Source: Escherichia coli
GTDB lineage: Bacteria > Pseudomonadota > Gammaproteobacteria > Enterobacterales > Enterobacteriaceae
DNA: 64,000 nucleotides
Assembly: GCF_001677475.2 (NCBI RefSeq)
Contig: NZ_CP015229.1
Direction: 5' to 3' (one strand)
Both the position numbers and the translations under genes were made by a program. Position 1 is the first letter of the stretch. Each line of letters starts with the position of its first letter. Positions 16,214 to 59,350 of this stretch are shown here, piece by piece. The notes under the pieces were generated by a model. The model did not search any database, was not told the origin of the DNA, and worked only from the letters and a program-made list of their open reading frames with translations.

Positions 16214-16966
16214 ATGAACCTTGAAGCTTTACCAAAATATTACTCCCCAAAATCGCCAAAATTGAGTGATGACGCACCGGCGACAGGCTCGGGTGGTTTA
16301 ACAATAACAGATGTGATGGCTGCGCAGGGGATGGTGCAGTCGAAAGCTCCGCTTGGTTTTGCCTTATTCCTGGCAAAAGTTGGTGTTCAGGATCCTCAGT
16401 TTGCGATTGAAGGTCTGCTCAATTACGCGATGGCAATGGATAATCCGACATTGAACAAATTGAGTGAAGAAATCCGGTTACAGATCATCCCTTACCTTGT
16501 GAATTTTGCCTTTGCTGATTATTCCAGGTCTGCGGCAAGTAAGGCTCGCTGTGAGTATTGTGCTGGTACTGGATTTCATAATGTATTGCGCGAAGTGGTG
16601 AAACACTCCAGAAGCGGGGAATCTGTTATCAAGGAAGAGTGGGTGAAGGAACTATGTCAGCATTGCCATGGTAAGGGAGAAGTCAGCACAGCGTGCAGAG
16701 GGTGTAAGGGGAAAGGTATTGTCCTGGATGAAAAAAGAACCCGGCTTCATAGCACGCCTGTTTATAAGGTTTGTGGGCGTTGCAATGGAAACCGGTTTAG
16801 TCGTTTACCAACGACACTGGCGCGGTGTCATGTCCAGAAGCTGGTACCAGACCTGACGGATTATCAGTGGTACAAAGGATATGCAGATGTCATTGATAAA
16901 CTGGTTACAAAGTGCTGGCAGGAAGAAGCATATGCTGAGGTGCAATTAAGAAAAGTGACGAGATAA
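16214..16966 (+). CDS. Late-gene antiterminator Q (zinc-binding)
   Basis: 250-aa ORF with multiple CxxC motifs (CEYCAGTG, CQHCHGKG, CRGCKGKG, CGRCNGN); upstream of the lysis cassette. Confidence 0.75.
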   Translation: MNLEALPKYYSPKSPKLSDDAPATGSGGLTITDVMAAQGMVQSKAPLGFALFLAKVGVQDPQFAIEGLLNYAMAMDNPTLNKLSEEIRLQIIPYLVNFAFADYSRSAASKARCEYCAGTGFHNVLREVVKHSRSGESVIKEEWVKELCQHCHGKGEVSTACRGCKGKGIVLDEKRTRLHSTPVYKVCGRCNGNRFSRLPTTLARCHVQKLVPDLTDYQWYKGYADVIDKLVTKCWQEEAYAEVQLRKVTR

Positions 16967-18071: not shown

Positions 18072-18126
18072 TAATGGAACATTAATTGGCAGATGTGATT
18101 GTGTACAACTTATGGGAGGCTTAAGA

Positions 18127-20115: not shown

Positions 20116-20173
20116 TTATCTGCTTTAAATATGTTATTAAAATATAAAAAATACTTGTTACGAATAAAATCAA

Positions 20174-20562: not shown

Positions 20563-20778
20563 ATGAAATCAATGGATAAGTTAACAACAGGTATCGCCTA
20601 TGGCACATCGGCTGGTAATGCTGGTTTCTGGGCATTGCAGTTACTCGATAAAGTAACTCCGTCACAGTGGGCTGCAATCGGTGTGCTGGGTAGTCTGGTT
20701 TTTGGCCTGCTGACATATCTGACAAACCTTTATTTCAAGATTAAAGAAGACAGGCGTAAGGTTGCGAGAAGAGAGTAA
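20563..20778 (+). CDS. Holin (phage 21 S / EssD-EssQ class II type)
   Basis: 71-aa ORF with two TM segments and charged C-terminus ([13 protein letters not shown]). Confidence 0.85.
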
Positions 20779-20782
20779 TCCA

Positions 20783-21334
20783 ATGACTCAAGACTATGAA
20801 CTGGTTGTGAAAGGAGTTCGCAATTTTGAGAATAAAGTGGCGGTAACTGTAGCCTTACGGGACAAAAAACACTTTGACGGTGAAATTTTTGACCTGGACA
20901 TCTCGCTGGACCGTGTTGAAGGTGCCGCGCTGGAGTTTTATGAGGCAGCAGCCAGAAGGAGCATCAGACAGGTCTTCCTGGATGTTGCTGCCGGGTTATG
21001 TGAAGGGGATGAGCAGTCGCCGGAAAAGCGCCCCATAATTTTAGAGGCGCAGAATGTGTGGATAACCTACAAAGGAAAGCTACCGGGAAGAATTACTGGT
21101 TCTCTGAAGACGCCACCGACGGCATTGCGGTCAGAAAAAGATGATATTGAATCGCCCATTGAAAAACTGGAGGGCAGCGTCGCTGATCTGAATAAAAAAT
21201 TGTCGGTGCTGATTCCTTCTGAAGATGAAAAAAAACGCCGCGATGAGCAGTTTGCGGCGTTTTACGATTATTGCATTGAAGTTACTCGCAGGAATTTTGT
21301 GAAGATTTTTGAGGAGGGTAAATCTCTTCAGTAA
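20783..21334 (+). CDS. Hypothetical protein between holin and endolysin
   Basis: 184 aa from ATG at 20783 (MTQDYELVVKGV...); no recognised motif; possibly YdfR-position gene. Confidence 0.4.
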   Translation: MTQDYELVVKGVRNFENKVAVTVALRDKKHFDGEIFDLDISLDRVEGAALEFYEAAARRSIRQVFLDVAAGLCEGDEQSPEKRPIILEAQNVWITYKGKLPGRITGSLKTPPTALRSEKDDIESPIEKLEGSVADLNKKLSVLIPSEDEKKRRDEQFAAFYDYCIEVTRRNFVKIFEEGKSLQ

Positions 21335-21542
21335 GCTTATTGGCGGACGCTGCAATTAATTCAGGAAGGTCCGCAAGGTCATCTGTCAGTGGATATGATG
21401 AAAAATCGGCGGCAGTTCTGTTAAGAAGCGCTTTAACTAATTCCTTTTCCTTCTCCGGCAACAAGTTGATTAGAGCTACGACTGCTTGCCTGAGTGCGAT
21501 TAAATCAGCAAAAGTTTGTTTTGGTAGATTTGTGTAATCCAT
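21282..21542 (-). CDS. Hypothetical 86-aa protein, convergent and 3'-overlapping the preceding ORF
   Basis: Minus-strand ATG preceded by SD GAGGCG; non-repetitive protein-like composition. Confidence 0.35.
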   Translation of the reverse strand: MDYTNLPKQTFADLIALRQAVVALINLLPEKEKELVKALLNRTAADFSSYPLTDDLADLPELIAASANKLTEEIYPPQKSSQNSCE

Positions 21543-21655
21543 AGTCGCCTCGGTGTTTATCAGATTGACATCCTCCTCCCGCCAGTGCCCATCACTGGTG
21601 AGGTAAGATTTAACATATCCGGGGATTTGAAGCCGATAAATCCTGATAAATATCC

Positions 21656-22683
<1,028 letters not shown>

Positions 22684-23045
22684 ATTAATATTAAATCGGA
22701 TTATTTTTAGCGCTGAATGTGAAATTTAAATAAAAAGGACTCTTCCATGAGTCAAAATCCTTGAAATCTTAAGGGTAAGATAAAAGGTCATTAGACAGAA
22801 TGACACGTTTTATTAATAAATAAAGCTATTGTTTCATTCGTGTGTTTTTCTTTACAAAAGTAATCCTTGCTATGGTTGGTTAATCATGCGTTAATGGTGT
22901 TCTGGTTTGTTACAAAATTATCTGAAGCAGTCATTGTTATAATTTTATTATTTGTACCTCTTGAGATTTCCTTGTTGGTTTTTCTCTCTGATATTTTTTT
23001 CGGACCATTCTGCCCAAGGGCTAACTTCTTCAAAAGGTAATAATG

Positions 23046-23258
23046 ATGTCTAACAAAATGACTGGTTTAGTGAAATGGTTTAACCCTGAAAAAGGTTTTG
23101 GTTTCATCACGCCGAAAGATGGTAGCAAAGATGTGTTTGTCCATTTCTCAGCTATTCAGAGCAACGATTTCAAAACGTTAACTGAGAATCAGGAAGTCGA
23201 ATTTGGTATTGAGAACGGACCTAAAGGCCCCGCGGCTGTTCATGTTGTGGCACTTTGA
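23046..23258 (+). CDS. cspI: Cold-shock protein CspI
   Basis: [70 protein letters not shown] matches recalled CspI. Confidence 0.9.
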
Positions 23259-23461
23259 GGTAGAAAATATTACAAACCATATTCACTTTAGATGCCCGTG
23301 TTGCCATGGTTCTCAGTATAGAACATCATCTTTTGATGTTTCTGACAGGAATCCTTTCGGGGCAAAATGTATCTTTTGTAAATCAATGATGATTACATTT
23401 GATAATATTTCACAATACTTAAATGTTAGCCGTCTGTCGTTAGATTTAAGAAAGTGAAAAT

Positions 23462-23486
23462 GAAGGCTCCTTCGGGAGCTTTTTTG
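23462..23486 (+). terminator. Rho-independent terminator after cspI
   Basis: GGCTCC-TTCG-GGAGC followed by TTTTTTG. Confidence 0.7.
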
Positions 23487-23490
23487 CTTA

Positions 23491-23760
23491 GTGTCTAGTC
23501 GATGGATACTCACATATTACGGTAACATTATGAAAAAAATAATAGTTTTTTTTAACTCTGAACCAGCAATGGTAGTGCCAGTGATGACCGGAGTTAACAC
23601 CATCATGCGTGAATATCCAAATGGCGAAACAACACACCTCACTGTAATGGCTGCAGGGTTTCCATCTCTGACCGGAGATCATAAAGTCATTTATGTAGCA
23701 GCGGATCGACATGTAACTTCAGAAGAAATTCTGGAAGCAGCAATGAGACTCTTGAATTGA
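23491..23760 (+). CDS. Hypothetical small protein
   Basis: 89-codon ORF; start uncertain; no recognised motif. Confidence 0.3.
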   Translation: MSSRWILTYYGNIMKKIIVFFNSEPAMVVPVMTGVNTIMREYPNGETTHLTVMAAGFPSLTGDHKVIYVAADRHVTSEEILEAAMRLLN

Positions 23761-23932
23761 TTTGATTCTAATGCATTGATAATAAATGATAATCATCTTT
23801 ATCTGTTTGTGTGAAATTTAGACCGTCGTATGTTGATTATTGCGATGTTTCATCTTATCTTTTATACGTTTGCTCCATATAATTGACACTACTGTGTACC
23901 AGGAAAGTCATAACAGACTAAAAGAGGAAATG

Positions 23933-24106
23933 ATGAACATTGAAGAGTTAAAAACAAAAACAGAAGCAGATATTTCTGAATATATAACAAAAAAAATCAT
24001 TGAGCTTAAGAAAAAGACCGGGAAAGAAGTTACCAGTATCCAGTTTACTGCACGGGAAAAAATGACTGGTCTTGAAAGCTATGATATCAAGATTGATTTA
24101 ATCTAG
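23933..24106 (+). CDS. gnsB: GnsA/GnsB-family small protein
   Basis: MNIEELKTKTEADISEYITKKIIELKKKTGKEVTSIQFTAREKMTGLESYDIKIDLI resembles GnsB; SD AGAGGA upstream. Confidence 0.75.
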   Translation: MNIEELKTKTEADISEYITKKIIELKKKTGKEVTSIQFTAREKMTGLESYDIKIDLI

Positions 24107-24401
24107 TCTGTTTATAGTATTAGCATCAATTTCTTGTCAGATGCTATTCAACAATACAATTTACCCATAAACCTCGTTTTTACGGGGTTTTGTTATATTT
24201 AAACATTACCGAATAGATATAAATCTCGATAGTCGGTGGTATTGGTTGTGTGACAATACCTAGTCTTTTCGGTATGCCTGGAGAGAATACAAACGACAGA
24301 TTATGTAAGGGAAACGCGCTGAAACTTTCACACTTTCATGCTGAGTGATTTGACGTTATATTTTTAGCCGCAAGTGAAGAGCAAACGCATGGAGCGACAA
24401 A

Positions 24402-24608
24402 ATGCATAAAGATCAATACACTGATGACTCATCCCTGGATCAGGTCCGTGTAAAAACTATGCTCACTAGCACCATTTCTATGAGTTATCCGGATGTTGTA
24501 ATTGCATGTATAGAACATCAAGTGTCTCTGGAAGCATTCAGGGCAATTGAGGCAGCGTTGGTGAAGCACGATAAGAATTCGAAGGATTATTCCCTGGTGG
24601 TTGACTGA
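24402..24608 (+). CDS. Hypothetical small protein
   Basis: 68-aa ORF, no recognised motif. Confidence 0.3.
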
Positions 24609-24858
24609 TCACCATAACTGCTAACCATTCAAACTATTTCACCTGTGACAGAGTCAATATCGCATTCTGTCACTGTCAGGCTAATACAGAACTACAATTC
24701 AACTACTGCAATGCCTCGTAATTAGGTGAATTTACAATATCGTCCTGTTCGGATGCCAACTGCATTTCTGAGGATAAGGCGTTTATGACTCACATATTTG
24801 TCCCACACGCTCGCCAGTCCTGTGCGGGGTGGGAGGGGAGGTAAAGAAACCGGGATGT

Positions 24859-25053
24859 TCATCCATCATCACTTTGGATTGATGTATATGCTCTCTTTTC
24901 TGACGTTAGTCTCCGACGGCAGGCTTCAATGACCCAGGCTGAGAAATTCCCAGACCCTTTTTGCTCAAGAGCGATGTTAATTTGTTCAATCATTTGGTTA
25001 GGAAAGCGGATGTTGCGGGTTGTTGTTCTGCAGGTTCTGTTCTTCGTTGACAT
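24859..25053 (-). CDS. Small DNA-binding protein (DUF3950-like) upstream of cos
   Basis: 64-aa ORF MSTKNRTCRTTTRNIRFPNQMIEQINIALEQKGSGNFSAWVIEACRRRL, ribbon-helix-helix-like pattern. Confidence 0.5.
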   Translation of the reverse strand: MSTKNRTCRTTTRNIRFPNQMIEQINIALEQKGSGNFSAWVIEACRRRLTSEKRAYTSIQSDDG

Positions 25054-27887: not shown

Positions 27888-28077
27888 ACTGCAGGCGCTG
27901 CGTCAGGCGCGCCTTGATTTATTAACCGGTAAACGGGTGGTGTCTGTCCAGAAAGATGGTCGCAGAATTGAATATACGGCGGCTTCTCTGGATGAGCTTA
28001 ACCGGGCGATCAATGATGCGGAGTCGGTACTGGGGACAACCCGACGTCGCCGTCGTCCGCTGGGAGTGAGGTTATGA
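27871..28077 (+). CDS. W: Head-tail joining protein W
   Basis: 68-aa lambda W-like (TGKRVVSVQKDGRRIEYTA). Confidence 0.85.
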   Translation: MVTVAELQALRQARLDLLTGKRVVSVQKDGRRIEYTAASLDELNRAINDAESVLGTTRRRRRPLGVRL

Positions 28078-29666
28078 AACGAACGCCTGTCCTGATTGAT
28101 GTGAACGGTGTTCCGCTTCGTGAGAGTCTCAGCTACAACGGGGGCGGCGCAGGATTTGGCGGGCAAATGGCGGAGTGGTTGCCACCGGCGCAGAGTGCCG
28201 ATGCGGCCCTGCTGCCCGCGTTGCGTCTGGGGAATGCCCGGGCAGATGATCTGGTGCGCAATAACGGAATAGCGGCTAATGCGGTTGCCCTGCATAAGGA
28301 TCACATTGTCGGGCATATGTTTCTGATCAGCTACCGTCCGAACTGGCGCTGGCTGGGGATGCGGGAGACCGCAGCAAAAAGCTTTGTCGATGAGGTGGAG
28401 GCGTCCTGGTCGGAATACGCCGAAGGGATGTTTGGCGAGATCGACGTGGAAGGAAAACGCACGTTCACGGAATTTATCCGTGAAGGTGTGGGCGTTCATG
28501 CGTTTAACGGCGAAATCTTTGTGCAGCCGGTCTGGGATACGGAAACCACGCAGTTATTCCGTACGCGTTTTAAAGCTGTGAGTCCGAAACGGGTGGACAC
28601 GCCTGGACACGGTATGGGGAACCGTTTTCTGCGGGCCGGTGTGGAGGTCGATCGATATGGCCGTGCCGTCGCGTACCATATCTGTGAGGATGATTTTCCG
28701 TTCTCTGGTAGTGGACGATGGGAACGGATCCCGCGTGAACTTCCCACCGGGCGTCCGGCCATGCTGCATATTTTCGAGCCGGTGGAGGACGGGCAGACCC
28801 GTGGGGCTAATCAGTTTTACAGCGTCATGGAACGGCTGAAGATGCTCGATTCCCTGCAGGCAACACAGCTTCAGTCGGCCATAGTGAAGGCGATGTATGC
28901 AGCGACGATTGAAAGTGAACTTGATACCGAAAAGGCCTTTGAATATATCGCCGGCGCGCCACAGGAGCAGAAGGATAATCCGCTTATTAATATTCTGGAG
29001 AAGTTCTCCAGCTGGTATGACACGAATAACGTGACACTGGGCGGAGTCAAAATTCCGCACCTTTTCCCTGGTGATGATCTGAAACTACAGACTGCGCAGG
29101 ATTCAGACAATGGATTTTCTGCACTTGAACAGGCGCTGCTGCGGTATATCGCCGCCGGTCTTGGCGTTTCCTACGAACAGTTGTCCCGTGATTACTCGAA
29201 GGTCAGTTACTCAAGTGCCCGCGCCTCCGCCAATGAGTCGTGGCGCTATTTTATGGGGCGGCGAAAATTTATTGCGGCCCGGCTGGCCACGCAGATGTTT
29301 TCCTGCTGGCTGGAAGAGGCACTTCTTCGGGGGATTATTCGTCCGCCACGGGCACGTTTTGATTTTTATCAGGCGCGATCAGCCTGGTCACGGGCAGAGT
29401 GGATTGGTGCCGGAAGAATGGCCATTGACGGGCTCAAGGAAGTCCAGGAATCAGTGATGCGCATTGAGGCCGGACTGAGCACGTATGAGAAAGAGCTGGC
29501 GCTAATGGGCGAGGATTATCAGGACATTTTCCGCCAGCAGGTCAGGGAATCTGCAGAGCGGCAAAAAGCCGGACTCTCACGTCCGGTGTGGATATCGCAG
29601 GCGTATCAGCAGCAGATAGCGGAGAGTCGCAGGCCGGAAGAGGAGACAACACCACGTGAGACGTAA
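28074..29666 (+). CDS. B: Portal protein B
   Basis: 530-aa lambda gpB-like; packaging gene order. Confidence 0.9.
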   Translation: MKRTPVLIDVNGVPLRESLSYNGGGAGFGGQMAEWLPPAQSADAALLPALRLGNARADDLVRNNGIAANAVALHKDHIVGHMFLISYRPNWRWLGMRETAAKSFVDEVEASWSEYAEGMFGEIDVEGKRTFTEFIREGVGVHAFNGEIFVQPVWDTETTQLFRTRFKAVSPKRVDTPGHGMGNRFLRAGVEVDRYGRAVAYHICEDDFPFSGSGRWERIPRELPTGRPAMLHIFEPVEDGQTRGANQFYSVMERLKMLDSLQATQLQSAIVKAMYAATIESELDTEKAFEYIAGAPQEQKDNPLINILEKFSSWYDTNNVTLGGVKIPHLFPGDDLKLQTAQDSDNGFSALEQALLRYIAAGLGVSYEQLSRDYSKVSYSSARASANESWRYFMGRRKFIAARLATQMFSCWLEEALLRGIIRPPRARFDFYQARSAWSRAEWIGAGRMAIDGLKEVQESVMRIEAGLSTYEKELALMGEDYQDIFRQQVRESAERQKAGLSRPVWISQAYQQQIAESRRPEEETTPRET

Positions 29667-31161
29667 TCTTTCACACATTATTGCCGCAGCATTCAATGAA
29701 CCGCTGCTTCTGGAGCCCGCCTATGCGCGGGTTTTCTTTTGCGCGCTCGGGCGCGAGATGGGGGCAGCAAGTCTTTCGGTACCACAACAACAGGTACAGC
29801 TTGATGCTCCCGGAATGCTGGCTGAAACGGACGAGTATATGGCCGGAGGTAAACGACCGGCCCGTGTTTACCGGGTGGTGAACGGTATTGCTGTACTGCC
29901 GGTGACCGGCACGCTGGTGCACCGGCTGGGTGGTATGCGGCCATTTTCCGGAATGACAGGCTATGACGGCATTGTCGCCTGTCTTCAGCAGGCAATGGCG
30001 GATAGCCAGGTGCGGGGCGTACTGCTGGACATTGACAGTCCGGGCGGGCAGGCCGCCGGCGCGTTTGACTGCGCTGACATGATTTACCGCCTCCGTCAGC
30101 AGAAGCCGGTCTGGGCACTGTGCAATGACACGGCCTGTTCTGCAGCCATGCTGCTGGCGTCGGCCTGCTCCCGACGGCTGGTTACCCAGACATCCCGTAT
30201 CGGCTCCATTGGCGTGATGATGAGCCATGTCAGCTATGCCGGTCATCTGGCGCAGGCCGGTGTGGATATCACGCTGATTTACTCAGGGGCGCACAAGGTG
30301 GATGGCAATCAGTTTGAAGCGTTGCCGGCAGAGGTTCGCCAGGACATGCAGCAGCGGATTGATGCGGCGCGCCGGATGTTTGCCGAAAAAGTGGCGATGT
30401 ATACCGGTCTGTCTGTTGATGCCATCACGGGAACAGAGGCTGCCGTTTTTGAAGGTCAGTCCGGCATTGAGGCCGGGCTGGCGGATGAATTAATCAATGC
30501 GTCGGATGCCATCAGTGTGATGGCCACGGCGCTGAACAGTAATGTCAGAGGAGGCACTATGCCGCAATTAACTGCAACGGAAGCCGCCGCGCAGGAGAAC
30601 CAGCGAGTGATGGGGAGCCTGACATGCCAGGAAGCGAAAGGACGTGAACAGCTTGCCACGATGCTGGCAGGACAACAGGGCATGAGCGTTGAACAGGCCC
30701 GGGCGATTCTGGCCGCGGCGGCACCGCAGCAGCCGGTGGCATCCACGCAGAGTGAAGCCGATCGCATTATGGCGTGTGAAGAAGCGAACGGTCGTGAACA
30801 ACTGGCGGCAACGCTGGCGGCGATGCCGGAGATGACGGTGGAAAAAGCCCGCCCGATCCTGGCTGCTTCACCGCAGGCGGATGCCGGACCATCACTCCGT
30901 GATCAGATCATGGCACTGGATGAGGCAAAAGGGGCTGAGGCGCAGGCTGAACAGCTGGCTGCCTGCCCGGGAATGACAGTGGAGAGCGCCCGGGCTGTGC
31001 TGGCTGCGGGATCAGGTAAGGCAGAACCGGTCTCTGCATCCACAACCGCCATGTTTGAACATTTCATGGCGAACCATTCACCGGCAGCGGTACAGGGTGG
31101 CGTGGCACAGACGTCAGCAGACGGTGATGCGGACGTGAAAATGCTCATGGCCATGCCATGA
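29656..31161 (+). CDS. C: Head maturation protease C (S49 family) with nested scaffold Nu3-like C-terminal region
   Basis: 501-aa ORF; C-terminal three tandem ~35-aa repeats. Confidence 0.85.
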   Translation: MRRNLSHIIAAAFNEPLLLEPAYARVFFCALGREMGAASLSVPQQQVQLDAPGMLAETDEYMAGGKRPARVYRVVNGIAVLPVTGTLVHRLGGMRPFSGMTGYDGIVACLQQAMADSQVRGVLLDIDSPGGQAAGAFDCADMIYRLRQQKPVWALCNDTACSAAMLLASACSRRLVTQTSRIGSIGVMMSHVSYAGHLAQAGVDITLIYSGAHKVDGNQFEALPAEVRQDMQQRIDAARRMFAEKVAMYTGLSVDAITGTEAAVFEGQSGIEAGLADELINASDAISVMATALNSNVRGGTMPQLTATEAAAQENQRVMGSLTCQEAKGREQLATMLAGQQGMSVEQARAILAAAAPQQPVASTQSEADRIMACEEANGREQLAATLAAMPEMTVEKARPILAASPQADAGPSLRDQIMALDEAKGAEAQAEQLAACPGMTVESARAVLAAGSGKAEPVSASTTAMFEHFMANHSPAAVQGGVAQTSADGDADVKMLMAMP

Positions 31162-31197
31162 AGTCAGTGCTGACCATCAATAGGAGGTTTTTACAAT

Positions 31198-31545
31198 ATG
31201 GTGACGAAAACCATCACTGAACAGCGTGCGGAAGTACGTATTTTTGCCGGTAATGATCCGGCTCATACCGCCACAGGCAGCAGCGGGATTTCTCAGGCAA
31301 CACCGGCACTGACGCCCCTGATGCTGGATGAGTCTACCGGGAAACTGGTGGTCTGGGACGGACAGAAAGCCGGTAGTGCGGCTGGCATACTGGTACTGCC
31401 GCTTGAAGGCACAGAGACGGTGCTGACGTATTACAAGTCGGGAACCTTTGCGACGGAGGCAATCCACTGGCCTGAAAGTGTGGATGAACACAAAAAGGCC
31501 AACGCCTTTGCCGGCAGTGCCCTGAGTCACGCGGCGCTGCCGTAA
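31198..31545 (+). CDS. D: Head decoration protein D
   Basis: Lambda gpD-like (NDPAHTATG...PLMLD...KSGTFA). Confidence 0.88.
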   Translation: MVTKTITEQRAEVRIFAGNDPAHTATGSSGISQATPALTPLMLDESTGKLVVWDGQKAGSAAGILVLPLEGTETVLTYYKSGTFATEAIHWPESVDEHKKANAFAGSALSHAALP

Positions 31546-31602
31546 CACGTTATCAGGCCACCGCGGTGGCCTGACTGATTTCTGAATGAAAGGAACTGAT
31601 TT

Positions 31603-32631
31603 ATGGGATTGTTTACGACCCGCCAGTTGCTCGGTTATACCGAACAAAAAGTGAAATATCGTGCGCTGTTTCTGGAGCTGTTTTTCCGCCGTACGGTGAA
31701 TTTCCATACCGAAGAGGTGATGCTGGACAAAATTACCGGAAAAACGCCGGTGGCGGCCTATGTCTCCCCGGTTGTTGAAGGAAAAGTGCTGCGTCATCGT
31801 GGTGGTGAAACCCGCGTGTTGCGTCCGGGCTACGTCAAGCCGAAACACGAATTTAATTACCAGCAGGCGGTTGAGCGCCTTCCTGGTGAAGATCCATCTC
31901 AACTGAACGATCCGGCTTACCGCCGTCTGCGTATCATTACCGATAACCTCAAACAGGAAGAGCACGCGATTGTCCAGGTGGAAGAAATGCAGGCGGTAAA
32001 TGCTGTGTTGTATGGCAAATACACCATGGAAGGAGACCAGTTCGAGAAAATTGAGGTCGATTTTGGCAGGTCGACGAAGAATAACATCACACAGGGTAGC
32101 GGTAAGGAATGGTCAAAACAGGATCGTGACACGTTCGATCCTACACATGATATTGATCTTTACTGCGACCAGGCCAGCGGTCTTGTGAATATTGCCATCA
32201 TGGACGGTACCGTTTGGCGTCTGCTGAATGGTTTTAAGCTGTTTCGCGAAAAACTGGATACCCGTCGCGGTTCAAATTCACAACTCGAAACGGCAGTGAA
32301 AGATCTGGGCGCAGTGGTGTCCTTCAAGGGGTATTACGGCGATCTGGCTATTGTTGTGGCGAAAACGTCTTATATAGCAGAAGACGGTATCGAAAAACGT
32401 TATCTTCCAGATGGCATGCTGGTCCTGGGGAATACTGCTGCAGATGGGATCCGTTGTTACGGAGCCATTCAGGATGCGCAGGCGTTGTCCGAAGGTGTGG
32501 TGGCTTCTTCCCGTTATCCGAAACACTGGCTGACGGTGGGGGATCCTGCCCGTGAATTTACCATGACGCAGTCCGCACCGCTGATGGTGTTGCCGGACCC
32601 GGATGAGTTTGTGGTGGTACAGGTGAAATAA
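31603..32631 (+). CDS. E: Major capsid protein E
   Basis: 342-aa lambda gpE-like (PGYVKPKHE, DPAREFTM, LPDPDEFV). Confidence 0.92.
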   Translation: MGLFTTRQLLGYTEQKVKYRALFLELFFRRTVNFHTEEVMLDKITGKTPVAAYVSPVVEGKVLRHRGGETRVLRPGYVKPKHEFNYQQAVERLPGEDPSQLNDPAYRRLRIITDNLKQEEHAIVQVEEMQAVNAVLYGKYTMEGDQFEKIEVDFGRSTKNNITQGSGKEWSKQDRDTFDPTHDIDLYCDQASGLVNIAIMDGTVWRLLNGFKLFREKLDTRRGSNSQLETAVKDLGAVVSFKGYYGDLAIVVAKTSYIAEDGIEKRYLPDGMLVLGNTAADGIRCYGAIQDAQALSEGVVASSRYPKHWLTVGDPAREFTMTQSAPLMVLPDPDEFVVVQVK

Positions 32632-32640
32632 TCCGTGAGC

Positions 32641-32668
32641 GGGGGCGAAATGCCCCCGTGTCTTTTTT
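32641..32668 (+). terminator. Terminator-like hairpin between E and FI (possible attenuator)
   Basis: GGGGGC-GAAAT-GCCCCC followed by GTGTCTTTTTTC. Confidence 0.35.
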
Positions 32669-32682
32669 CACAGGGGGCTGAT

Positions 32683-33057
32683 ATGGCAACGAAAGAGCAA
32701 AATCTGAAACGGCTTGATGAACTGGCCCTGATTCTGGGGCGTGAGCCGGATATATCCGGGAGTGCCGCAGAGATAGCGCAGCGGGTGGCGGAATGGGAAG
32801 AGGAAATGCAGTCATCCGGCGATGATGTACAGGTTATGAATATGGATATCCGGGAGCAGGAAACCGCGGCTCATGATGTTCGTGAGGAAACATCCGGCGC
32901 GTTAACGCGCATCAGAGTTCTGACCTGCCTCCATCTCTGTGGCATTGATGGTGAAACGGGGGAATCCGTTGAGCTTGCGGATGTTGGTCGGGTGATTCTG
33001 ATTATGTCCTCAGATGCAAAAACACACGTTGATGGCGGAATGGCTGTTTATGCGTGA
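32683..33057 (+). CDS. FI: DNA packaging protein FI
   Basis: Start at MATKEQN with SD GGGGG; position between E and FII. Confidence 0.7.
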   Translation: MATKEQNLKRLDELALILGREPDISGSAAEIAQRVAEWEEEMQSSGDDVQVMNMDIREQETAAHDVREETSGALTRIRVLTCLHLCGIDGETGESVELADVGRVILIMSSDAKTHVDGGMAVYA

Positions 33058-33403
33058 TTTTCAGAATGCCTTTGATGCCGCCCTTGCCGGGGTGGACAGT
33101 ACGATTGTTGAAGTGATGGGCATCAGTGCGCAGTTCACCTCCGGTGCACAGCGTGGCGGCGAGGTTCATGGCGTTTTTGACGATCCGGAGTCGCTGGGTT
33201 TTGCCAGTAGTGGGATCCGTATTGAAGGAAGCAACCCGTCATTATTTGTGCTTACGGATACGGTTTGTGCTGTACGGCGTGGTGACACGCTGACCATTAA
33301 CGGCGAGATATTCTGGGTGGATCGTGTTTCTCCGGATGACGGAGGGAGTTGTTATCTCTGGCTCAACCGGGGGCAACCACCTGCCGTTAACCGTCGCCGC
33401 TGA
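33050..33403 (+). CDS. FII: Head-tail connector FII
   Basis: 117 aa from MRDFQNAF; C-terminus VDRVSPDDGGSC.LWL.RG.PPAVNRRR as in lambda FII. Confidence 0.85.
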   Translation: MRDFQNAFDAALAGVDSTIVEVMGISAQFTSGAQRGGEVHGVFDDPESLGFASSGIRIEGSNPSLFVLTDTVCAVRRGDTLTINGEIFWVDRVSPDDGGSCYLWLNRGQPPAVNRRR

Positions 33404-33414
33404 AAGGGGGATGT

Positions 33415-33993
33415 ATGGCCATAAAAGGTCTTGAGCAGGCCGTTGAAAACCTCAGCCGTATCAGCAAAACGGCGGTGCCTGGTGCCGCCGCAATGGCCAT
33501 TAACCGCGTTGCTTCATCCGCGATATCGCAGTCGGCGTCACAGGTTGCCCGTGAGACAAAGGTACGCCGGAAACTGGTAAAGGAAAGGGCCAGGCTGAAA
33601 AGGGCCACGGTCAAAAATCCGCAGGCCAGAATCAAGGTTAACCGGGGGGATTTGCCCGTAATCAAGCTGGGTAACGCGCGGATTGTCCTGCCCCGACGCA
33701 GGCGTCGTAAAAAGGGGCAGCGTTCAGCCCTGAAAGGTGGCGGCAGCGTGCTTGTGGTGGGAAACCGTCGTATTCCCGGCGCGTTTATTCAGCAACTGAA
33801 AAATGGCCGCTGGCATGTTATGCAGCGTGTGGCCGGGAAAAACCGTTACCCCATTGATGTAGTGAAAATCCCGATGGCGGTGCCGCTGACCACGGCGTTT
33901 AAACAAAATATTGAGCGGATACGGCGTGAACGTCTTCCGAAAGAGCTGGGCTATGCGCTGCAGCATCAACTGAGGATGGTAATAAAGCGATGA
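33415..33993 (+). CDS. Z: Tail completion protein Z
   Basis: 192-aa lambda gpZ-like. Confidence 0.85.
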   Translation: MAIKGLEQAVENLSRISKTAVPGAAAMAINRVASSAISQSASQVARETKVRRKLVKERARLKRATVKNPQARIKVNRGDLPVIKLGNARIVLPRRRRRKKGQRSALKGGGSVLVVGNRRIPGAFIQQLKNGRWHVMQRVAGKNRYPIDVVKIPMAVPLTTAFKQNIERIRRERLPKELGYALQHQLRMVIKR

Positions 33994-34385
33994 AACATAC
34001 TGAACTCCGTGCAGCCGTACTGGATGCACTGGAGAAGCATGACACCGGGGCGACGTTTTTTGATGGTCGCCCCGCTGTTTTTGATGAGGCGGATTTTCCG
34101 GCAGTTGCCGTTTATCTCACCGGCGCTGAATACACGGGCGAAGAGCTGGACAGCGATACCTGGCAGGCGGAGCTGCATATCGAAGTTTTCCTGCCTGCTC
34201 AGGTGCCGGATTCAGAGCTGGATGCGTGGATGGAGTCCCGGATTTATCCGGTGATGAGTGATATCCCGGCACTGTCAGATTTGATCACCAGTATGGTGGC
34301 CAGCGGCTATGACTACCGGCGCGACGATGATGTGGGCCTGTGGAGTTCAGCCGATCTGACTTATGTCATTACCTATGAAATGTGA
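33990..34385 (+). CDS. U: Tail terminator protein U
   Basis: 131 aa; matches recalled lambda gpU almost residue for residue. Confidence 0.95.
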
Positions 34386-34392
34386 GGACGCT

Positions 34393-35133
34393 ATGCCTGT
34401 ACCAAATCCTACAATGCCGGTGAAAGGTGCCGGGACCACCCTGTGGGTTTATAAGGGGAGCGGTGACCCTTATGCGAATCCGCTTTCAGACGTTGACTGG
34501 TCGCGTCTGGCAAAAGTTAAAGACCTGACGCCCGGCGAACTGACCGCTGAGTCCTATGACGACAGCTATCTCGATGATGAAGATGCAGACTGGACTGCGA
34601 CCGGGCAGGGGCAGAAATCCGCCGGAGATACCAGCTTCACGCTGGCGTGGATGCCCGGAGAGCAGGGGCAGCAGGCGCTGCTGGCGTGGTTTAATGAAGG
34701 TGATACCCGTGCCTATAAAATCCGCTTCCCGAACGGCACGGTCGATGTGTTCCGTGGCTGGGTGAGCAGTATCGGTAAGGCGGTGACGGCGAAGGAAGTG
34801 ATCCCCCGTACGGTGAAGGTCACCAATGTGGGCCGTCCGTCAATGGCAGAAGATCGCAGTACGGTAACAGCGGCAACCGGTATGACTGTGACGCCTGCCA
34901 GCTCCTCGGTGGTGAAAGGGCAGAGCACCACGCTGACCGTGGCATTCCAGCCGGAGGGCGCAACTGACAAGAGCTTCCGTGCGGTGTCAGCGGATAAAAC
35001 AAAAGCCACCGTGTCGGTCAGTGGTATGACCATCACCGTGAAAGGCGTTGCTGCAGGCAAGGTCAACATTCCGGTTGTATCCGGTAATGGTGAACTTGCT
35101 GCGGTTGCAGAAATCACTGTCACCGACAGTTAA
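34393..35133 (+). CDS. V: Major tail protein V
   Basis: [31 protein letters not shown]...; near-identical to recalled lambda gpV including the C-terminal Ig-like domain. Confidence 0.95.
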
Positions 35134-35148
35134 TCCGGAGAGTCAGCG

Positions 35149-35571
35149 ATGTTCCTGAAAACCGAATCATTTGAACATAACGGCGTGACCGTCACGCTTT
35201 CTGAACTGTCAGCCCTGCAGCGTATTGAGCATCTCGCCCTGATGAAACGGCAGGCAGAACAGGCGGAGTCAGACAGCAACCGGCAGGTTACTGTGGAAGA
35301 CGTCATCAGAACCGGTGCTTGTGTGGTGGCGATGTCCCTGTGGCATAACCATCCGAAGAAGACGCAGATGCCGTCCATGAATGAAGCCGTTAAACAGATT
35401 GAGCAGGAAGTGCTTACCACCTGGCCCACAGAGGCAATTTCTCATGCTGAAAACGTGGTGTACCGGCTGTCCGGAATGTATGAGTTTGTGGTGAATGATG
35501 CCCCTGACCAGGCAGAGGACGCCGGGCCTGCAGAGCCTGTTTCTGCGGGAAAGTGTTCGACGGTGAGCTGA
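35149..35571 (+). CDS. G: Tail assembly chaperone G
   Basis: 140-aa lambda gpG-like; ends just past the slippery site. Confidence 0.9.
   Translation: MFLKTESFEHNGVTVTLSELSALQRIEHLALMKRQAEQAESDSNRQVTVEDVIRTGACVVAMSLWHNHPKKTQMPSMNEAVKQIEQEVLTTWPTEAISHAENVVYRLSGMYEFVVNDAPDQAEDAGPAEPVSAGKCSTVS
35547..35553 (+). other. Programmed -1 ribosomal frameshift slippery heptamer GGGAAAG (G to G-T fusion)
   Basis: G GGA AAG in the G frame, followed by the T ORF in the -1 frame. Confidence 0.85.
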
Positions 35572-35987
35572 GTTTTGCCCTGAAACTGGCGCGCGAGATG
35601 GGGCGACCCGACTGGCGTGCCATGCTTGCCGGGATGTCATCCACGGAGTATGCCGACTGGCACCGCTTTTACAGTACCCATTATTTTCATGATGTTCTGC
35701 TGGATATGCACTTTTCCGGGCTGACGTACACCGTACTCAGCCTGTTTTTCAGCGATCCGGATATGCATCCGCTGGATTTCAGTCTGCTGAACCGGCGCGA
35801 GGCTGACGAAGAGCCTGAAGATGATGTGCTGATGCAGAAAGCGGCAGGGCTTGCCGGAGGTGTCCGCTTTGGCCCGGACGGGAATGAAGTTATCCCTACT
35901 TCCCCGGATGTGGCGGACATGACGGAGGATGACGTAATGCTGATGACAGTATCAGAAGGGATCGCAGGAGGAGTCCGGTATGGCTGA
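35553..35987 (+). CDS. T: Tail assembly protein T (expressed as G-T frameshift fusion)
   Basis: -1 frame ORF downstream of the slippery site; lambda gpT-like. Confidence 0.85.
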   Translation: MFDGELSFALKLAREMGRPDWRAMLAGMSSTEYADWHRFYSTHYFHDVLLDMHFSGLTYTVLSLFFSDPDMHPLDFSLLNRREADEEPEDDVLMQKAAGLAGGVRFGPDGNEVIPTSPDVADMTEDDVMLMTVSEGIAGGVRYG

Positions 35988-38541
35988 ACCGGTAGGCGAT
36001 CTGGTCGTTGATTTGAGTCTGGATGCGGCCAGATTTGACGAGCAGATGGCCAGAGTCAGGCGTCATTTTTCCGGTACGGAAAGTGATGCGAAAAAAACAG
36101 CGGCAGTCGTTGAACAGTCGCTGAGCCGACAGGTGCTGGCTGCACAGAAAGCGGGGATTTCCGTCGGGCAGTATAAAGCCGCCATGCGTATGCTGCCTGC
36201 ACAGTTCACCGACGTGGCCACGCAGCTTGCAGGCGGGCAAAGTCCGTGGCTGATCCTGCTGCAACAGGGGGGGCAGGTGAAGGACTCCTTCGGCGGGATG
36301 ATCCCCATGTTCAGGGGGCTTGCCGGTGCGATCACTCTGCCGATGGTCGGGGCCACCTCGCTGGCGGTGGCGACCGGTGCGCTGGCGTATGCCTGGTATC
36401 AGGGCAACTCAACCCTGTCCGATTTCAACAAAACGCTGGTCCTTTCCGGCAATCAGGCGGGACTGACGGCAGATCGTATGCTGGTCCTGTCCAGAGCCGG
36501 GCAGGCGGCAGGGCTGACGTTTAACCAGACCAGCGAGTCACTCAGCGCACTGGTTAAGGCGGGGGTAAGCGGTGAGGCTCAGATTGCGTCCATCAGCCAG
36601 AGTGTGGCGCGTTTCTCCTCTGCATCCGGCGTGGAGGTGGACAAGGTCGCTGAAGCCTTCGGGAAGCTGACCACAGACCCGACGTCGGGGCTGACGGCGA
36701 TGGCACGCCAGTTCCATAACGTGACGGCGGAGCAGATTGCGTATGTTGCTCAGTTGCAGCGTTCCGGCGATGAAGCCGGGGCATTGCAGGCGGCGAACGA
36801 GGCCGCAACGAAAGGGTTTGATGACCAGACCCGCCGCCTGAAAGAGAACATGGGCACGCTGGAGACCTGGGCAGACAGGACTGCGCGGGCATTCAAATCC
36901 ATGTGGGATGCGGTGCTGGATATTGGTCGTCCTGATACCGCGCAGGAGATGCTGATTAAGGCAGAGGCTGCGTTTAAGAAAGCAGACGACATCTGGAATC
37001 TGCGCAAGGATGATTATTTTGTTAACGATGAAGCGCGGGCGCGTTACTGGGATGATCGTGAAAAGGCCCGTCTTGCGCTTGAAGCCGCCCGAAAGAAGGC
37101 TGAGCAGCAGACTCAACAGGACAAAAATGCGCAGCAGCAGAGCGATACCGAAGCGTCACGGCTGAAATATACCGAAGAGGCGCAGAAGGCTTACGAACGG
37201 CTGCAGACGCCGCTGGAGAAATATACCGCCCGTCAGGAAGAACTGAACAAGGCACTGAAAGACGGGAAAATCCTGCAGGCGGATTACAACACGCTGATGG
37301 CGGCGGCGAAAAAGGATTATGAAGCGACGCTGAAAAAGCCGAAACAGTCCGGCGTGAAGGTGTCTGCGGGCGATCGTCAGGAAGACAGTGCTCATGCTGC
37401 CCTGCTGACGCTTCAGGCAGAACTCCGGACGCTGGAGAAGCATGCCGGAGCGAATGAGAAAATCAGCCAGCAGCGCCGGGATTTGTGGAAGGCAGAAAGT
37501 CAGTTCGCGGTACTGGAGGAGGCGGCACAACGTCGCCAGCTGTCCGCACAGGAGAAATCCCTGCTGGCGCATAAAGATGAGACGCTGGAGTACAAACGCC
37601 AGCTGGCTGCACTTGGCGACAAGGTTACGTATCAGGAGCGCCTGAACGCGCTGGCGCAGCAGGCGGATAAATTCGCACAGCAGCAACGGGCAAAACGGGC
37701 CGCCATTGATGCGAAAAGCCGGGGGCTGACTGACCGGCAGGCAGAACGGGAAGCCACGGAACAGCGCCTGAAGGAACAGTATGGCGATAATCCGCTGGCG
37801 CTGAATAACGTCATGTCAGAGCAGAAAAAGACCTGGGCGGCTGAAGACCAGCTTCGCGGGAGCTGGATGGCAGGCCTGAAGTCCGGCTGGAGTGAGTGGG
37901 AAGAGAGCGCCACGGACAGTATGTCGCAGGTAAAAAGTGCAGCCACGCAGACCTTTGATGGTATTGCACAGAATATGGCGGCGATGCTGACCGGCAGTGA
38001 GCAGAACTGGCGCAGCTTCACCCGTTCCGTGCTGTCCATGATGACAGAAATTCTGCTTAAGCAGGCAATGGTGGGGATTGTCGGGAGTATCGGCAGCGCC
38101 ATTGGCGGGGCTGTTGGTGGCGGCGCATCCGCGTCAGGCGGTACAGCCATTCAGGCCGCTGCGGCGAAATTCCATTTTGCAACCGGAGGATTTACGGGAA
38201 CCGGCGGCAAATATGAGCCAGCGGGGATTGTTCACCGTGGTGAGTTTGTCTTCACGAAGGAGGCAACCAGCCGGATTGGCGTGGGGAATCTTTACCGGCT
38301 GATGCGCGGCTATGCCACCGGCGGTTATGTCGGTACACCGGGCAGCATGGCAGACAGCCGGTCGCAGGCGTCCGGGACGTTTGAGCAGAATAACCATGTG
38401 GTGATTAACAACGACGGCACGAACGGGCAGATAGGTCCGGCTGCTCTGAAGACGGTGTATGACATGGCCCGCAAGGGTGCCCGTGATGAAATTCAGACAC
38501 AGATGCGTGATGGTGGCCTGTTCTCCGGAGGTGGACGATGA
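35980..38541 (+). CDS. H: Tape measure protein H
   Basis: 853-aa ORF, near-identical to recalled lambda gpH. Confidence 0.95.
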   Translation: MAEPVGDLVVDLSLDAARFDEQMARVRRHFSGTESDAKKTAAVVEQSLSRQVLAAQKAGISVGQYKAAMRMLPAQFTDVATQLAGGQSPWLILLQQGGQVKDSFGGMIPMFRGLAGAITLPMVGATSLAVATGALAYAWYQGNSTLSDFNKTLVLSGNQAGLTADRMLVLSRAGQAAGLTFNQTSESLSALVKAGVSGEAQIASISQSVARFSSASGVEVDKVAEAFGKLTTDPTSGLTAMARQFHNVTAEQIAYVAQLQRSGDEAGALQAANEAATKGFDDQTRRLKENMGTLETWADRTARAFKSMWDAVLDIGRPDTAQEMLIKAEAAFKKADDIWNLRKDDYFVNDEARARYWDDREKARLALEAARKKAEQQTQQDKNAQQQSDTEASRLKYTEEAQKAYERLQTPLEKYTARQEELNKALKDGKILQADYNTLMAAAKKDYEATLKKPKQSGVKVSAGDRQEDSAHAALLTLQAELRTLEKHAGANEKISQQRRDLWKAESQFAVLEEAAQRRQLSAQEKSLLAHKDETLEYKRQLAALGDKVTYQERLNALAQQADKFAQQQRAKRAAIDAKSRGLTDRQAEREATEQRLKEQYGDNPLALNNVMSEQKKTWAAEDQLRGSWMAGLKSGWSEWEESATDSMSQVKSAATQTFDGIAQNMAAMLTGSEQNWRSFTRSVLSMMTEILLKQAMVGIVGSIGSAIGGAVGGGASASGGTAIQAAAAKFHFATGGFTGTGGKYEPAGIVHRGEFVFTKEATSRIGVGNLYRLMRGYATGGYVGTPGSMADSRSQASGTFEQNNHVVINNDGTNGQIGPAALKTVYDMARKGARDEIQTQMRDGGLFSGGGR

Positions 38542-58374: not shown

Positions 58375-59350
<976 letters not shown>

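What the first reader, a model, noticed from the sequence alone, without database searches (positions are those of the whole stretch)
32641..32668. Terminator-like hairpin between capsid gene E and FI
A 6-bp GC stem followed by a U-rich tract lies in the short E-FI spacer; it could attenuate transcription to set head-to-packaging protein ratios.
Basis: seen in the sequence. Interest (0 to 1): 0.2.

Follow-up and report, generated by a model that had tools for sequence, protein, structure and literature searches.

The report
Conserved RNA hairpin after capsid gene
A stable RNA hairpin with a weak U-rich tail sits right after the major capsid gene of this phage-21-like prophage, as in lambda and many relatives; it is a real but ordinary, already-described kind of feature whose exact role (leaky terminator or mRNA protector) is still untested.

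Summary
An 8-bp stem (32639-32646 / 32652-32659, 7 G-C plus 1 G·U, loop GAAAU, -16.8 kcal/mol) followed by GUC-UUUUUU lies in the 51-nt spacer between the major capsid gene (phage 21 gene 7, lambda E family) and FI.

It is not chance. It is the top-ranked terminator-like site in 20 kb of the late region. It is 100% paired in 22 sequence variants, and every stem substitution is C-to-U giving G·U. Stable hairpins of unrelated sequence occupy the same position in 12 of 16 E-family phage lineages examined, including lambda. GenBank already annotates the N15 equivalent as a "putative rho-indep. transcription terminator".

As a terminator it is sub-canonical. The U6 run is displaced by 3 nt, so it scores below validated lambda terminators. 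Across lineages the hairpin is conserved and the U-tract is not. The operon also lies downstream of a Q-type antiterminator gene.

My best reading is a leaky terminator-type hairpin whose main effect is a protected 3' end for capsid mRNA. This is a new member of a known kind and of low interest.

The parts
31603..32631 (+). Major capsid protein gene (phage 21 gene 7 / lambda E family), stop codon UAA 32629-32631
   Evidence: ORF; Pfam PF03864 Phage_cap_E E=6.9e-64; 98% nt identity to phage 21 M81255 gene 7
32639..32659 (+). RNA stem-loop: 5' arm 32639-32646 GCGGGGGC, loop 32647-32651 GAAAU, 3' arm 32652-32659 GCCCCCGU; 7 G-C plus 1 G·U; -16.8 kcal/mol
   Evidence: 100% paired in 22 variants with only G·U-preserving substitutions; single copy in the window
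32660..32669 (+). Tail GUCUUUUUUC: U6 run 32663-32668, displaced 3 nt from the stem (sub-canonical U-tract)
   Evidence: tail score nT 1.7-2.35 against 4.1-4.4 for lambda tR2 and toop; mostly conserved within the 21 type but with variants UUGUUUU, UUUAUU, UUUUUG
32673..32677 (+). Shine-Dalgarno of FI (GGGGG; polymorphic GGAGG/GGGAG/AGAGG in relatives)
   Evidence: RBS annotated in M81255 and OL657228; variants
32683..33057 (+). FI (DNA-packaging protein; phage 21 ORF1) gene
   Evidence: internal ATG of the listed ORF; Pfam PF14000 Packaging_FI E=1e-16; PGAP gpFI in NZ_CP195759
31553..31574 (+). Companion hairpin in the D-E spacer (UCAGGCCAC-CGCG-GUGGCCUGA, -16.8 kcal/mol, no U-tract), so the capsid cistron is bracketed by hairpins
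   Evidence: lambda, N15, phi80 and K245 have a canonical hairpin plus U7 at the same spacer; N15's is annotated as a putative terminator
31198..31545 (+). Head decoration protein gene (shp / lambda D family)
   Evidence: Pfam PF02924 HDPD E=6.7e-25
16214..16966 (+). Q-type late antiterminator gene (context: the hairpin lies inside the co-oriented late operon downstream of it)
   Evidence: ORF; Pfam PF03589 Antiterm E=4e-50; PGAP 'antitermination protein ydfT' in the 99%-identical prophage of NZ_CP195759

Best explanation
This is a sense-strand RNA stem-loop of the intrinsic-terminator type, with a weak tail, placed at the 3' end of the major-capsid cistron inside a Q-antiterminated late operon.

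Proposed working (inferred):
1. During lytic growth, Q-modified RNA polymerase reads through it, so FI and the tail genes are still transcribed.
2. The hairpin folds in the finished RNA.
3. 3' ends arise just downstream of it. They come from low-efficiency termination by polymerases lacking Q, or from endonucleolytic cleavage in the U-rich tail.
4. At those ends the G-C stem blocks 3'-to-5' exonucleases.
5. The capsid (D-E) segment of the late mRNA therefore outlasts or outnumbers the downstream segments. This helps supply about 400 copies per virion of E against catalytic amounts of FI.

Shown here: the structure, its strand, its conservation and its genomic context. Inferred: 3'-end formation, protection from decay and any effect on protein ratios.
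For: - The stable hairpin is at exactly this place and is unlikely by chance.
- Selection acts on the RNA of the + strand. In 22 distinct 21-type spacer variants from 80 IMG/VR loci plus phages, the 8-bp stem is paired in 100% of cells. All 5 substituted sequences carry C-to-U changes giving G·U, which would be A·C mismatches on the other strand. One variant has matched one-base deletions in both arms. The adjacent SD is freely polymorphic.
- In the lambda type, the basal A-U pair is G·U in 16 loci and G-C in N15 and phi80. The rest of the stem is invariant in 83 loci.
- Position is conserved while sequence is not. Twelve of 16 E-family lineages, from Escherichia, Aeromonas, Salmonella, Vibrio, Xylella, Burkholderia, Rhodobacter, Serratia and Ruegeria phages, have a stable hairpin 2-31 nt after the capsid stop codon. 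Most beat 295-300 of 300 shuffles; lambda's own beat only 264 of 300.
- The U-tract is weak here and not conserved, whereas validated lambda terminators score high. This points to the hairpin itself as the selected part.
- The Q-type antiterminator gene lies upstream and all late genes are co-oriented. The 8-bp stem is of the short kind that processive antitermination bypasses (PMC10325885).
- Terminator hairpins are reported to raise upstream transcript abundance (PMC11696848).
- A second hairpin follows D, the other very abundant head protein.
Against: - No transcript data were available. 3' ends, half-lives and read-through are all untested.
- Within the 21 type the U6 run is fairly well conserved, which a pure stability hairpin would not need. 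PhAER-5 and JS26 carry canonical terminators at this site. Real, possibly substantial, termination therefore cannot be excluded.
- Four of 16 lineages lack the hairpin.
- No two-sided compensatory change occurs within the 21 type, and shuffling control (a) is uninformative there.
- The loci are closely related prophages, so variant counts are sequences, not independent events.
- My terminator score is a re-implementation from memory of d'Aubenton-Carafa 1990 with modern energies. It was calibrated only on lambda tR2 and toop and on its recovery of other hairpin+U-tract sites in a lambda-wide scan.
Confidence: 0.5

Rival explanations
1. Genuine transcriptional attenuator. A substantial fraction of late-operon polymerases terminate at about 32666-32669, directly lowering transcription of FI and everything downstream relative to the head genes.
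For: G-C hairpin plus U6 on the sense strand, top-ranked by the consensus scan. The U run is largely conserved within the 21 type. N15's equivalent is annotated as a putative rho-independent terminator. Canonical terminators sit at the same site in PhAER-5 and JS26. There is precedent for leaky terminators right after the capsid gene balancing expression in T7 and LUZ100 (PMC10134795; PMC9163698). The phage L paper lists partial termination as one possible role (PMC8022706).
Against: The U-tract starts 3 nt after the stem, so the score is -8 to +1 against +17 and +21 for validated lambda terminators. Most lineages lack a usable U-tract. The operon is under Q-type processive antitermination, which bypasses short-stem terminators. 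All tail genes, some needed in high copy (V), lie downstream, so strong attenuation here would be costly. From my own knowledge, Sampson et al. 1988 attributed the lambda ratios to translation initiation.
Confidence: 0.2
2. Safety insulator. The hairpin mainly stops polymerases that are not Q-modified (spurious initiation inside the prophage head genes, read-in during lysogeny), keeping downstream late genes silent until Q is made.
For: The element only needs to work on unmodified RNAP, which fits its co-existence with Q. This role is explicitly proposed for intra-late-operon terminators in phage L and P22 (PMC8022706). Several other + strand terminator-like sites lie in the late region between Q and the terminase genes.
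Against: It does not explain why the hairpin sits specifically after the capsid gene (and after D) in so many lineages, including virulent Chi-like and Casjensviridae phages with no lysogeny. The weak U-tract makes it a poor stop even for unmodified RNAP. Promoter-like sites upstream are no more frequent than chance.
Confidence: 0.15
3. Translational switch for FI. The 3' arm GCCCCC (32652-57) can pair either with the 5' arm (hairpin A) or with the FI Shine-Dalgarno GGGGGC (32673-78, hairpin B). A ribosome terminating at the E stop codon would then transiently mask the 5' arm and alter FI initiation.
For: Hairpin B is -15.6 kcal/mol, against -16.8 for A. It becomes the minimum-energy fold when bases up to 32646 are removed. 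The stop codon is only 7 nt from the stem.
Against: With the 5' arm free, B has probability 0.009. In the commonest allele (SD GGAGG, 27 or more loci) B drops to -9.4 kcal/mol. Other alleles (GGGAG, AGAGG, GGGGA) also break it. Lambda, N15 and the others have no such complementarity. The stop-to-hairpin distance varies from 2 to 31 nt among lineages. The outer helix of the minimum-energy fold is only 94% paired with no covariation.
Confidence: 0.05
4. No function: a neutral palindrome, a DNA-level element (protein site or recombination junction) or a chance G/C run.
For: The context z-score is modest (-1.65). The spacer is a mosaic junction between E and differing FI alleles. There are no Rfam matches.
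Against: Unrelated sequences form hairpins at the same position in 12 of 16 lineages. Stem substitutions are exclusively G·U-preserving on the sense strand, which is meaningless for duplex DNA or a protein site. The stem is more conserved than the neighbouring SD.
Confidence: 0.05

Closest known systems
Putative rho-independent terminator stem-loops flanking the major head gene of phage N15 (GenBank AF064539 features 5980-6004 and 7053-7073), and the homologous lambda E-FI hairpin
   Same: Same gene order (D, hairpin, E, hairpin, FI) and same strand. Same anatomy: a 7-8 bp G-C stem, a 4-5 nt loop and a pyrimidine/U-rich tail immediately before the FI Shine-Dalgarno. Capsid proteins are 59-61% identical.
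   Different: The stem sequence is unrelated (GCGGGGGC/GCCCCCGU against R-UGGCCC/GGGCCA-Y). The 21-type tail has a true U6 run but displaced by 3 nt. The 21-type D-E hairpin lacks the A-tract and U7 that lambda and N15 have. It is not annotated in the phage 21 records or in the lambda records.
Intra-late-operon terminators of P22-like phages (phage L and P22, after the procapsid gene module)
   Same: A predicted intrinsic terminator inside a single-promoter, Q/gp23-antiterminated late operon at the end of the head-gene block. The authors state the role is unknown and offer partial termination or blocking non-antiterminated transcription (PMC8022706).
   Different: Different capsid protein family and gene order. 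No sequence relationship was tested.
T7 T-phi and the LUZ100 terminator immediately downstream of the major capsid gene
   Same: A leaky terminator placed right after the most abundant structural gene, thought to balance expression (PMC10134795; PMC9163698).
   Different: Those act on a phage single-subunit RNA polymerase, have a dedicated upstream promoter and are experimentally mapped. Here the polymerase is host RNAP modified by Q, and nothing has been mapped.
Intercistronic 3' stabiliser hairpins of polycistronic mRNAs (for example REP in malE-malF and the puf operon hairpins; named from my own knowledge)
   Same: A stable G-C stem-loop just 3' of the cistron needed in highest amount. The proposed action is blocking 3' exonucleases to give segmental differences in mRNA stability. 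Terminator hairpins raising upstream transcript abundance are reported in PMC11696848.
   Different: It is not a repeated element (single copy in the window) and has no REP consensus. The stability effect is untested here.

Membership tests
Intrinsic (Rho-independent) transcription terminator | G-C-rich stem-loop in the nascent RNA, on the transcribed sense strand, downstream of a stop codon | tested here: met
   8-bp stem with 7 G-C pairs, -16.8 kcal/mol, starting 7 nt after the capsid-gene UAA, on the + strand like all late genes
Intrinsic (Rho-independent) transcription terminator | U-tract of about 7-9 nt immediately following the stem | tested here: inconclusive
   The tail is GUC-UUUUUU-C, with 7 U in the first 10 nt after G32658 but the run displaced by 3 nt. 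Tail score nT is 1.7-2.35 and d is -8.4 to +1.1, against nT 4.1-4.4 and d +16.8 and +20.8 for lambda tR2 and toop. It passes the looser consensus scan.
Intrinsic (Rho-independent) transcription terminator | RNA 3' ends formed 7-9 nt after the stem; measurable termination efficiency | not testable with these tools
   No transcript data for this prophage, phage 21 or lambda could be read. Liu 2013, Casjens & Hendrix 2015 and Sampson 1988 are not held.
Post-capsid-gene hairpin of lambda-E-family head modules | Stable stem-loop within about 30 nt after the stop codon of a Phage_cap_E gene, before the next head or connector gene | tested here: met
   Present in the window and in 11 other of 16 lineages. 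Shuffle tests gave 0-5 of 300 for ten of them, 2 of 300 for the window and 36 of 300 for lambda.
Post-capsid-gene hairpin of lambda-E-family head modules | Pairing maintained under sequence change | tested here: met
   The 21 type is 100% paired with only G·U substitutions, plus one paired deletion. Lambda, lambda variants and N15 show A-U, G·U and G-C at the basal pair.
mRNA 3' stabiliser hairpin (segmental decay barrier) | Upstream segment more stable or abundant than downstream; dependence on the hairpin and on PNPase/RNase II | not testable with these tools
   Inferred only from anatomy and from hairpin-without-U-tract conservation.
REP/BIME-type repeated extragenic palindrome | Multi-copy palindromic element with a family consensus | tested here: not met
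   Only one match in the window with up to 3 mismatches. True REP-like palindromes lie at 59152-59280 and 229-256 with a different sequence.
Any curated Rfam RNA family | Covariance-model match | tested here: not met
   No match at E<=1 in 28000-38000 on either strand.

The most novel reading that the evidence does not exclude
The GGGGGC / GCCCCC / GGGGGC triplet (32641-46, 32652-57, 32673-78) could be a three-segment RNA switch. A ribosome finishing the heavily translated capsid gene would mask the first segment and free the middle one to sequester the FI ribosome-binding site. FI translation (and hairpin-dependent termination) would then be tuned inversely to capsid translation, as a translation-sensing attenuator inside a phage late operon.
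Probability: 0.04. Interest if true: 0.45.

Novelty: new member of a known kind. Interest (0 to 1): 0.15.

Why it matters
It matters little on its own. The hairpin is one instance of a widespread and already annotated habit of tailed phages: a stem-loop or leaky terminator right after the major capsid gene.

The modest value is comparative. Across lambda-E-family phages the stem-loop is conserved, with sense-strand G·U-only substitutions, while the U-tract is not. This points to an RNA-level role such as 3'-end protection rather than efficient termination. The role of such intra-operon "terminators" in Q-antiterminated late operons is explicitly described as unknown (PMC8022706). The spacer is non-coding, so clean disrupting and compensatory mutants in lambda or phage 21 could settle it.

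For annotation, the survey also shows that the phi80 FI start codon is probably mis-called inside the hairpin.

Tried and rejected
- **Rfam scan** of 28-38 kb at E<=1 found nothing.
- **Repeated element (REP-like):** rejected, single copy.
- **RNase III site:** rejected on anatomy, since an 8-bp stem is far shorter than known RNase III substrates (my own knowledge).
- **Bidirectional or antisense terminator:** rejected. The reverse strand has an A-run before the hairpin and no U-tract after it, and the G·U variants would be mismatches on that strand.
- **Outer helix of the minimum-energy fold** (32632-38 with 32668-75, touching the SD): only 94% paired, 9 broken cells, no covariation, so not adopted.
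- **SD-sequestering alternative hairpin B:** allele-specific and not conserved.
- **Internal promoters upstream** that might need insulating: promoter-like sites are at chance level.
- **Tandem Repeats Finder** on the Nu3 'Tri box' region found nothing at its thresholds.
- **Literature look-ups that failed:** Liu et al. 2013 lambda ribosome profiling, Casjens & Hendrix 2015 and Sampson et al. 1988 are not held. Searches for lambda 3'-end mapping found no data on the E-FI site. The lambda RIL-seq preprint names three Hfq-dependent sRNAs (PreS, plus LPR2 and 6S RNA in the late operon) and my term search of its text found no mention of the capsid-gene region, so a 3'-derived sRNA reading has no support there.
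- **First ungapped comparison of the window with NZ_CP195759** failed because of an off-by-one offset and indels. BLAST then showed 99% identity over 30 kb.

Full report
**What is there.** Window 32625-32690 reads ...GUGAAAUAA UCCGUGA GCGGGGGC GAAAU GCCCCCGU GUCUUUUUUC ACAGGGGGCUGAU AUG....
- The capsid-gene ORF 31603-32631 ends with UAA at 32629-31.
- The stem is 32639-46 paired with 32652-59: seven G-C pairs plus a basal G·U. The loop is GAAAU and the energy is -16.8 kcal/mol.
- A U6 run occupies 32663-68. The FI Shine-Dalgarno GGGGG is at 32673-77 and the FI ATG at 32683.
- Pfam confirms the neighbours: head decoration protein D (31198-31545), Phage_cap_E (31603-32631), Packaging_FI (32683-33057) and Phage_attach/FII.
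The full element is slightly larger.

**Where the window comes from.**
- The region is 98% identical to the phage 21 head operon (M81255, OL657228) and to several E. coli phages and prophages. The capsid protein is only 61% identical to lambda E.
- The window matches a prophage of E. coli JCKP02 at 99% over 30 kb.
- In that prophage the order is a Q-type antitermination gene, lysis genes, terminase, portal, protease, D, E, FI, FII and tail genes, all on one strand.
- In the window the Q-like ORF is 16214-16966 (Pfam Antiterm, E=4e-50).
- The hairpin therefore lies about 16 kb into a late operon that, by analogy with lambdoid phages, is transcribed from one late promoter under processive antitermination. 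PMC10695390 and PMC8022706 describe this organisation.
- Neither phage 21 record annotates the hairpin.

**Is it more than chance?**
- The consensus scan ranks it first among terminator-like sites in 25-40 kb and in 16-36 kb. The D-E spacer hairpin (31553-31574) ranks second.
- Single hairpins of -16.8 kcal/mol or better within 28 nt occur roughly ten times per strand in the window, against about two per dinucleotide shuffle. One in a given 51-nt spacer is expected about 0.002 times.
- Shuffling the spacer itself reaches the observed energy in 2 of 300 trials.
- The 66-nt context z-score is only -1.65, because G and C runs survive shuffling.
- In a 141-nt context the stem pairs have probability 0.89-0.99.
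- The sequence is single-copy in the window and matches no Rfam family.

**Comparative evidence within the sequence type.**
- Eighty IMG/VR loci encoding a 94-100% identical capsid protein, plus the phage records, gave 22 distinct spacer variants.
- On these, the 8-bp stem is paired in 100% of cells. Four pairs vary, always on one side, and always by C-to-U giving G·U or U·G (five sequences).
- One variant has lost one G and one C from opposite arms. Two have lost a single C.
- G·U pairs are meaningful only in RNA, and only on the + strand. On the other strand they would be A·C mismatches.
- By contrast the FI Shine-Dalgarno a few bases downstream is freely polymorphic (GGGGG, GGAGG, GGGAG, AGAGG, GGGGA).
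- Shuffling control (a) is uninformative because there are no two-sided changes. The slide control shows 97% pairing against 44-68%.
- These are related prophages, so the counts are sequences rather than independent events.

**Comparative evidence across types.**
- Lambda's E-FI spacer has an unrelated sequence but the same anatomy: UAA-UC-AUGGCCC-UUCG-GGGCCAU-UGUUUCUCU-...GGAGG...AUG.
- In 83 lambda-type loci the stem is invariant except for the basal A, which is G (G·U) in 16 loci. N15 and phi80 have G-C at that pair. This gives an A-U / G·U / G-C series.
- The N15 GenBank record annotates stem_loops as "putative rho-indep. transcription terminator" both between genes 7 and 8 (D/E) and between genes 8 and 9 (E/FI). 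The kind of feature is therefore already described.
- I sampled E-family capsid genes down to 24% identity. Stable hairpins lie 2-31 nt after the capsid stop codon in the 21 type, lambda, N15, phi80, Aeromonas PhAER-5, Salmonella Chi, Vibrio K245, Xylella Salvo, BcepNazgul, RcDora, Serratia JS26 and Ruegeria V7.
- No hairpin is found in Cr-LKS3, phiAP1 and KLER1-1, which have spacers of 1-10 nt, or in Nitratiruptor NrS-5.
- Spacer-shuffle tests give 0-5 of 300 for ten of these, 36 of 300 for lambda and 55 of 300 for NrS-5.
- A hairpin in the D-E spacer is restricted to the lambda, N15, phi80, 21 and K245 group.

**Is it a good terminator?**
- I re-implemented from memory the d'Aubenton-Carafa hairpin/U-tract score, using ViennaRNA energies.
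- Lambda tR2 scores +16.8 and toop +20.8. A lambda-wide scan also returns other high-scoring hairpin+U-tract sites, which I take from memory to be further known lambda terminators. It also returns the lambda D-E spacer hairpin (+13.6).
- The window's E-FI element scores -8.4, or +1.1 if the basal G·U is counted as tail, because the U6 run starts 3 nt after the stem.
- Lambda's E-FI element scores -13 to -3, N15 -16, Chi -39, K245 -49 and Salvo -33. Only PhAER-5 (+33) and JS26 (+16) look canonical.
- What is conserved after the capsid gene is thus a stable stem-loop, not a terminator tail. Within the 21 type, however, the U run is mostly kept.

**Mechanism.**
- Q-type antiterminators make RNA polymerase resistant to terminators throughout the late operon (PMC8022706; PMC7547250).
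- In another processive antitermination system, only extraordinarily long stems resist antitermination (PMC10325885). An 8-bp stem with a displaced U-tract should therefore be read through by Q-modified polymerase.
- Read-through is also required, because FI, FII and all tail genes lie downstream.
- The hairpin can still fold in the completed RNA. Terminator hairpins are reported to raise upstream transcript abundance (PMC11696848).
- I therefore favour (0.5) a leaky-terminator-type hairpin whose main consequence is a protected 3' end for the D-E (capsid) part of the late message.
- The rivals are a genuine attenuator (0.2), an insulator against non-antiterminated transcription (0.15), a translational switch on FI (0.05) and no function (0.05).
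- Leaky terminators immediately after the capsid gene are documented for T7 and LUZ100.
- From my own knowledge, not checked here: Sampson et al. 1988 attributed lambda late-protein ratios mainly to translation initiation, and Ray & Pearson (1974-75) reported differing functional decay of lambda late messages.

**The alternative pairing.**
- In this allele the 3' arm GCCCCC can also pair with the FI SD GGGGGC (hairpin B, 32652-32678, -15.6 kcal/mol).
- B becomes the minimum-energy fold if the 5' arm is removed, as a ribosome at the E stop codon might do.
- With the 5' arm free its probability is 0.009. It falls to -9.4 kcal/mol in the commonest allele (GGAGG), and nothing comparable exists in lambda or N15.
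- I regard it as a by-product of a purine-rich SD next to a C-rich arm, and keep it only as the low-probability novel reading.

**Verdict.**
- This is a new, unannotated member of a known kind of element. It is ordinary for phage head operons and of low interest.
- The useful by-products are the evidence for RNA-level selection on the stem, the finding that the hairpin rather than the U-tract is what is conserved across the lambda-E family, and a clean experimental design to resolve its role.

Noticed in passing
window 31553-31574: Second strong hairpin (UCAGGCCAC-CGCG-GUGGCCUGA, perfect palindrome containing CCGCGG, -16.8 kcal/mol) in the D-E spacer, without a U-tract. In lambda, N15, phi80 and Vibrio K245 the same spacer holds a canonical A-tract/hairpin/U7 terminator (d=+13.6 in lambda). 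Relatives vary at the top of the stem and in the loop (CCGCGG to CCATGG; GTGG to TTGG).
   Followed up: partly
L008 (phi80 JX871397) 1736-1774, record 7196-7234: The phi80 FI homologue is annotated to start at GTG 7196. That codon lies inside the post-capsid hairpin (GUGGCCC-UGUC-GGGCCAC). The N15-equivalent ATG 36 nt downstream (record 7232), preceded by GGAG, is the likelier start.
   Followed up: partly
window 32652-32678: Alternative hairpin pairing the 3' arm of the terminator-like stem with the FI Shine-Dalgarno (GCCCCC with GGGGGC), -15.6 kcal/mol. It is allele-specific and weakens to -9.4 in GGAGG alleles.
   Followed up: yes
window 32672-32700 and FI gene: The E-FI spacer is a mosaic junction. 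Loci with near-identical capsid genes and hairpins carry at least two FI 5' sequence types (GCAACGAAAGAGC against GCAACAAAAGAAG) and several SD variants. BLAST hits to PhiR12-type phages break into two pieces here.
   Followed up: no
window 30626-31020 (in the C/Nu3 gene 29656-31161): Three diverged repeats of about 110 bp, annotated in M81255 as Tri1/Tri/Tri3 boxes, 'function unknown'. They are visible in the protein as a thrice-repeated E-A-x-G-x-E-Q-L-A...M-(S/T)-V-E-x-A-R-x-(I/V)-L-A-A motif. Tandem Repeats Finder did not detect them.
   Followed up: partly
window 50443-51345 (+): A 300-aa ORF between the tail-fibre gene and the tail-fibre assembly gene. It corresponds to a PGAP 'macro domain-containing protein' in the matching prophage of NZ_CP195759 and may be a cargo or anti-defence gene.
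   Followed up: no
window 16214-25000: The prophage is a mosaic: a Qin-like late regulatory/lysis region (ydfT-type Q, essQ holin, rrrQ, rzpQ, several csp genes, gnsB) joined to phage-21-type head genes and lambda-like tail genes. Canonical terminator-like hairpins at 18042-18066, 20092-20111 and 24169-24190 lie between Q and the terminase genes and would also need antitermination.
   Followed up: partly
window 229-256, 59152-59179, 59253-59280: REP-like palindromes (CCGGATGCGGCGTGAACGCCTTATCCGG) lie in what are presumably host chromosomal flanks of the prophage.
   Followed up: no
phage collection hits H21, H68, H159: Aeromonas phage AP1 (MT713136) carries a 245-bp 98% match to the start of this capsid gene. 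A 'Campylobacter phage CJLB-4' record holds a lambda-type capsid gene, and a 'Staphylococcus phage SA 1298 Kay' record holds a Chi-type capsid gene (30% identity). These are probably contamination or mislabelled records.
   Followed up: no
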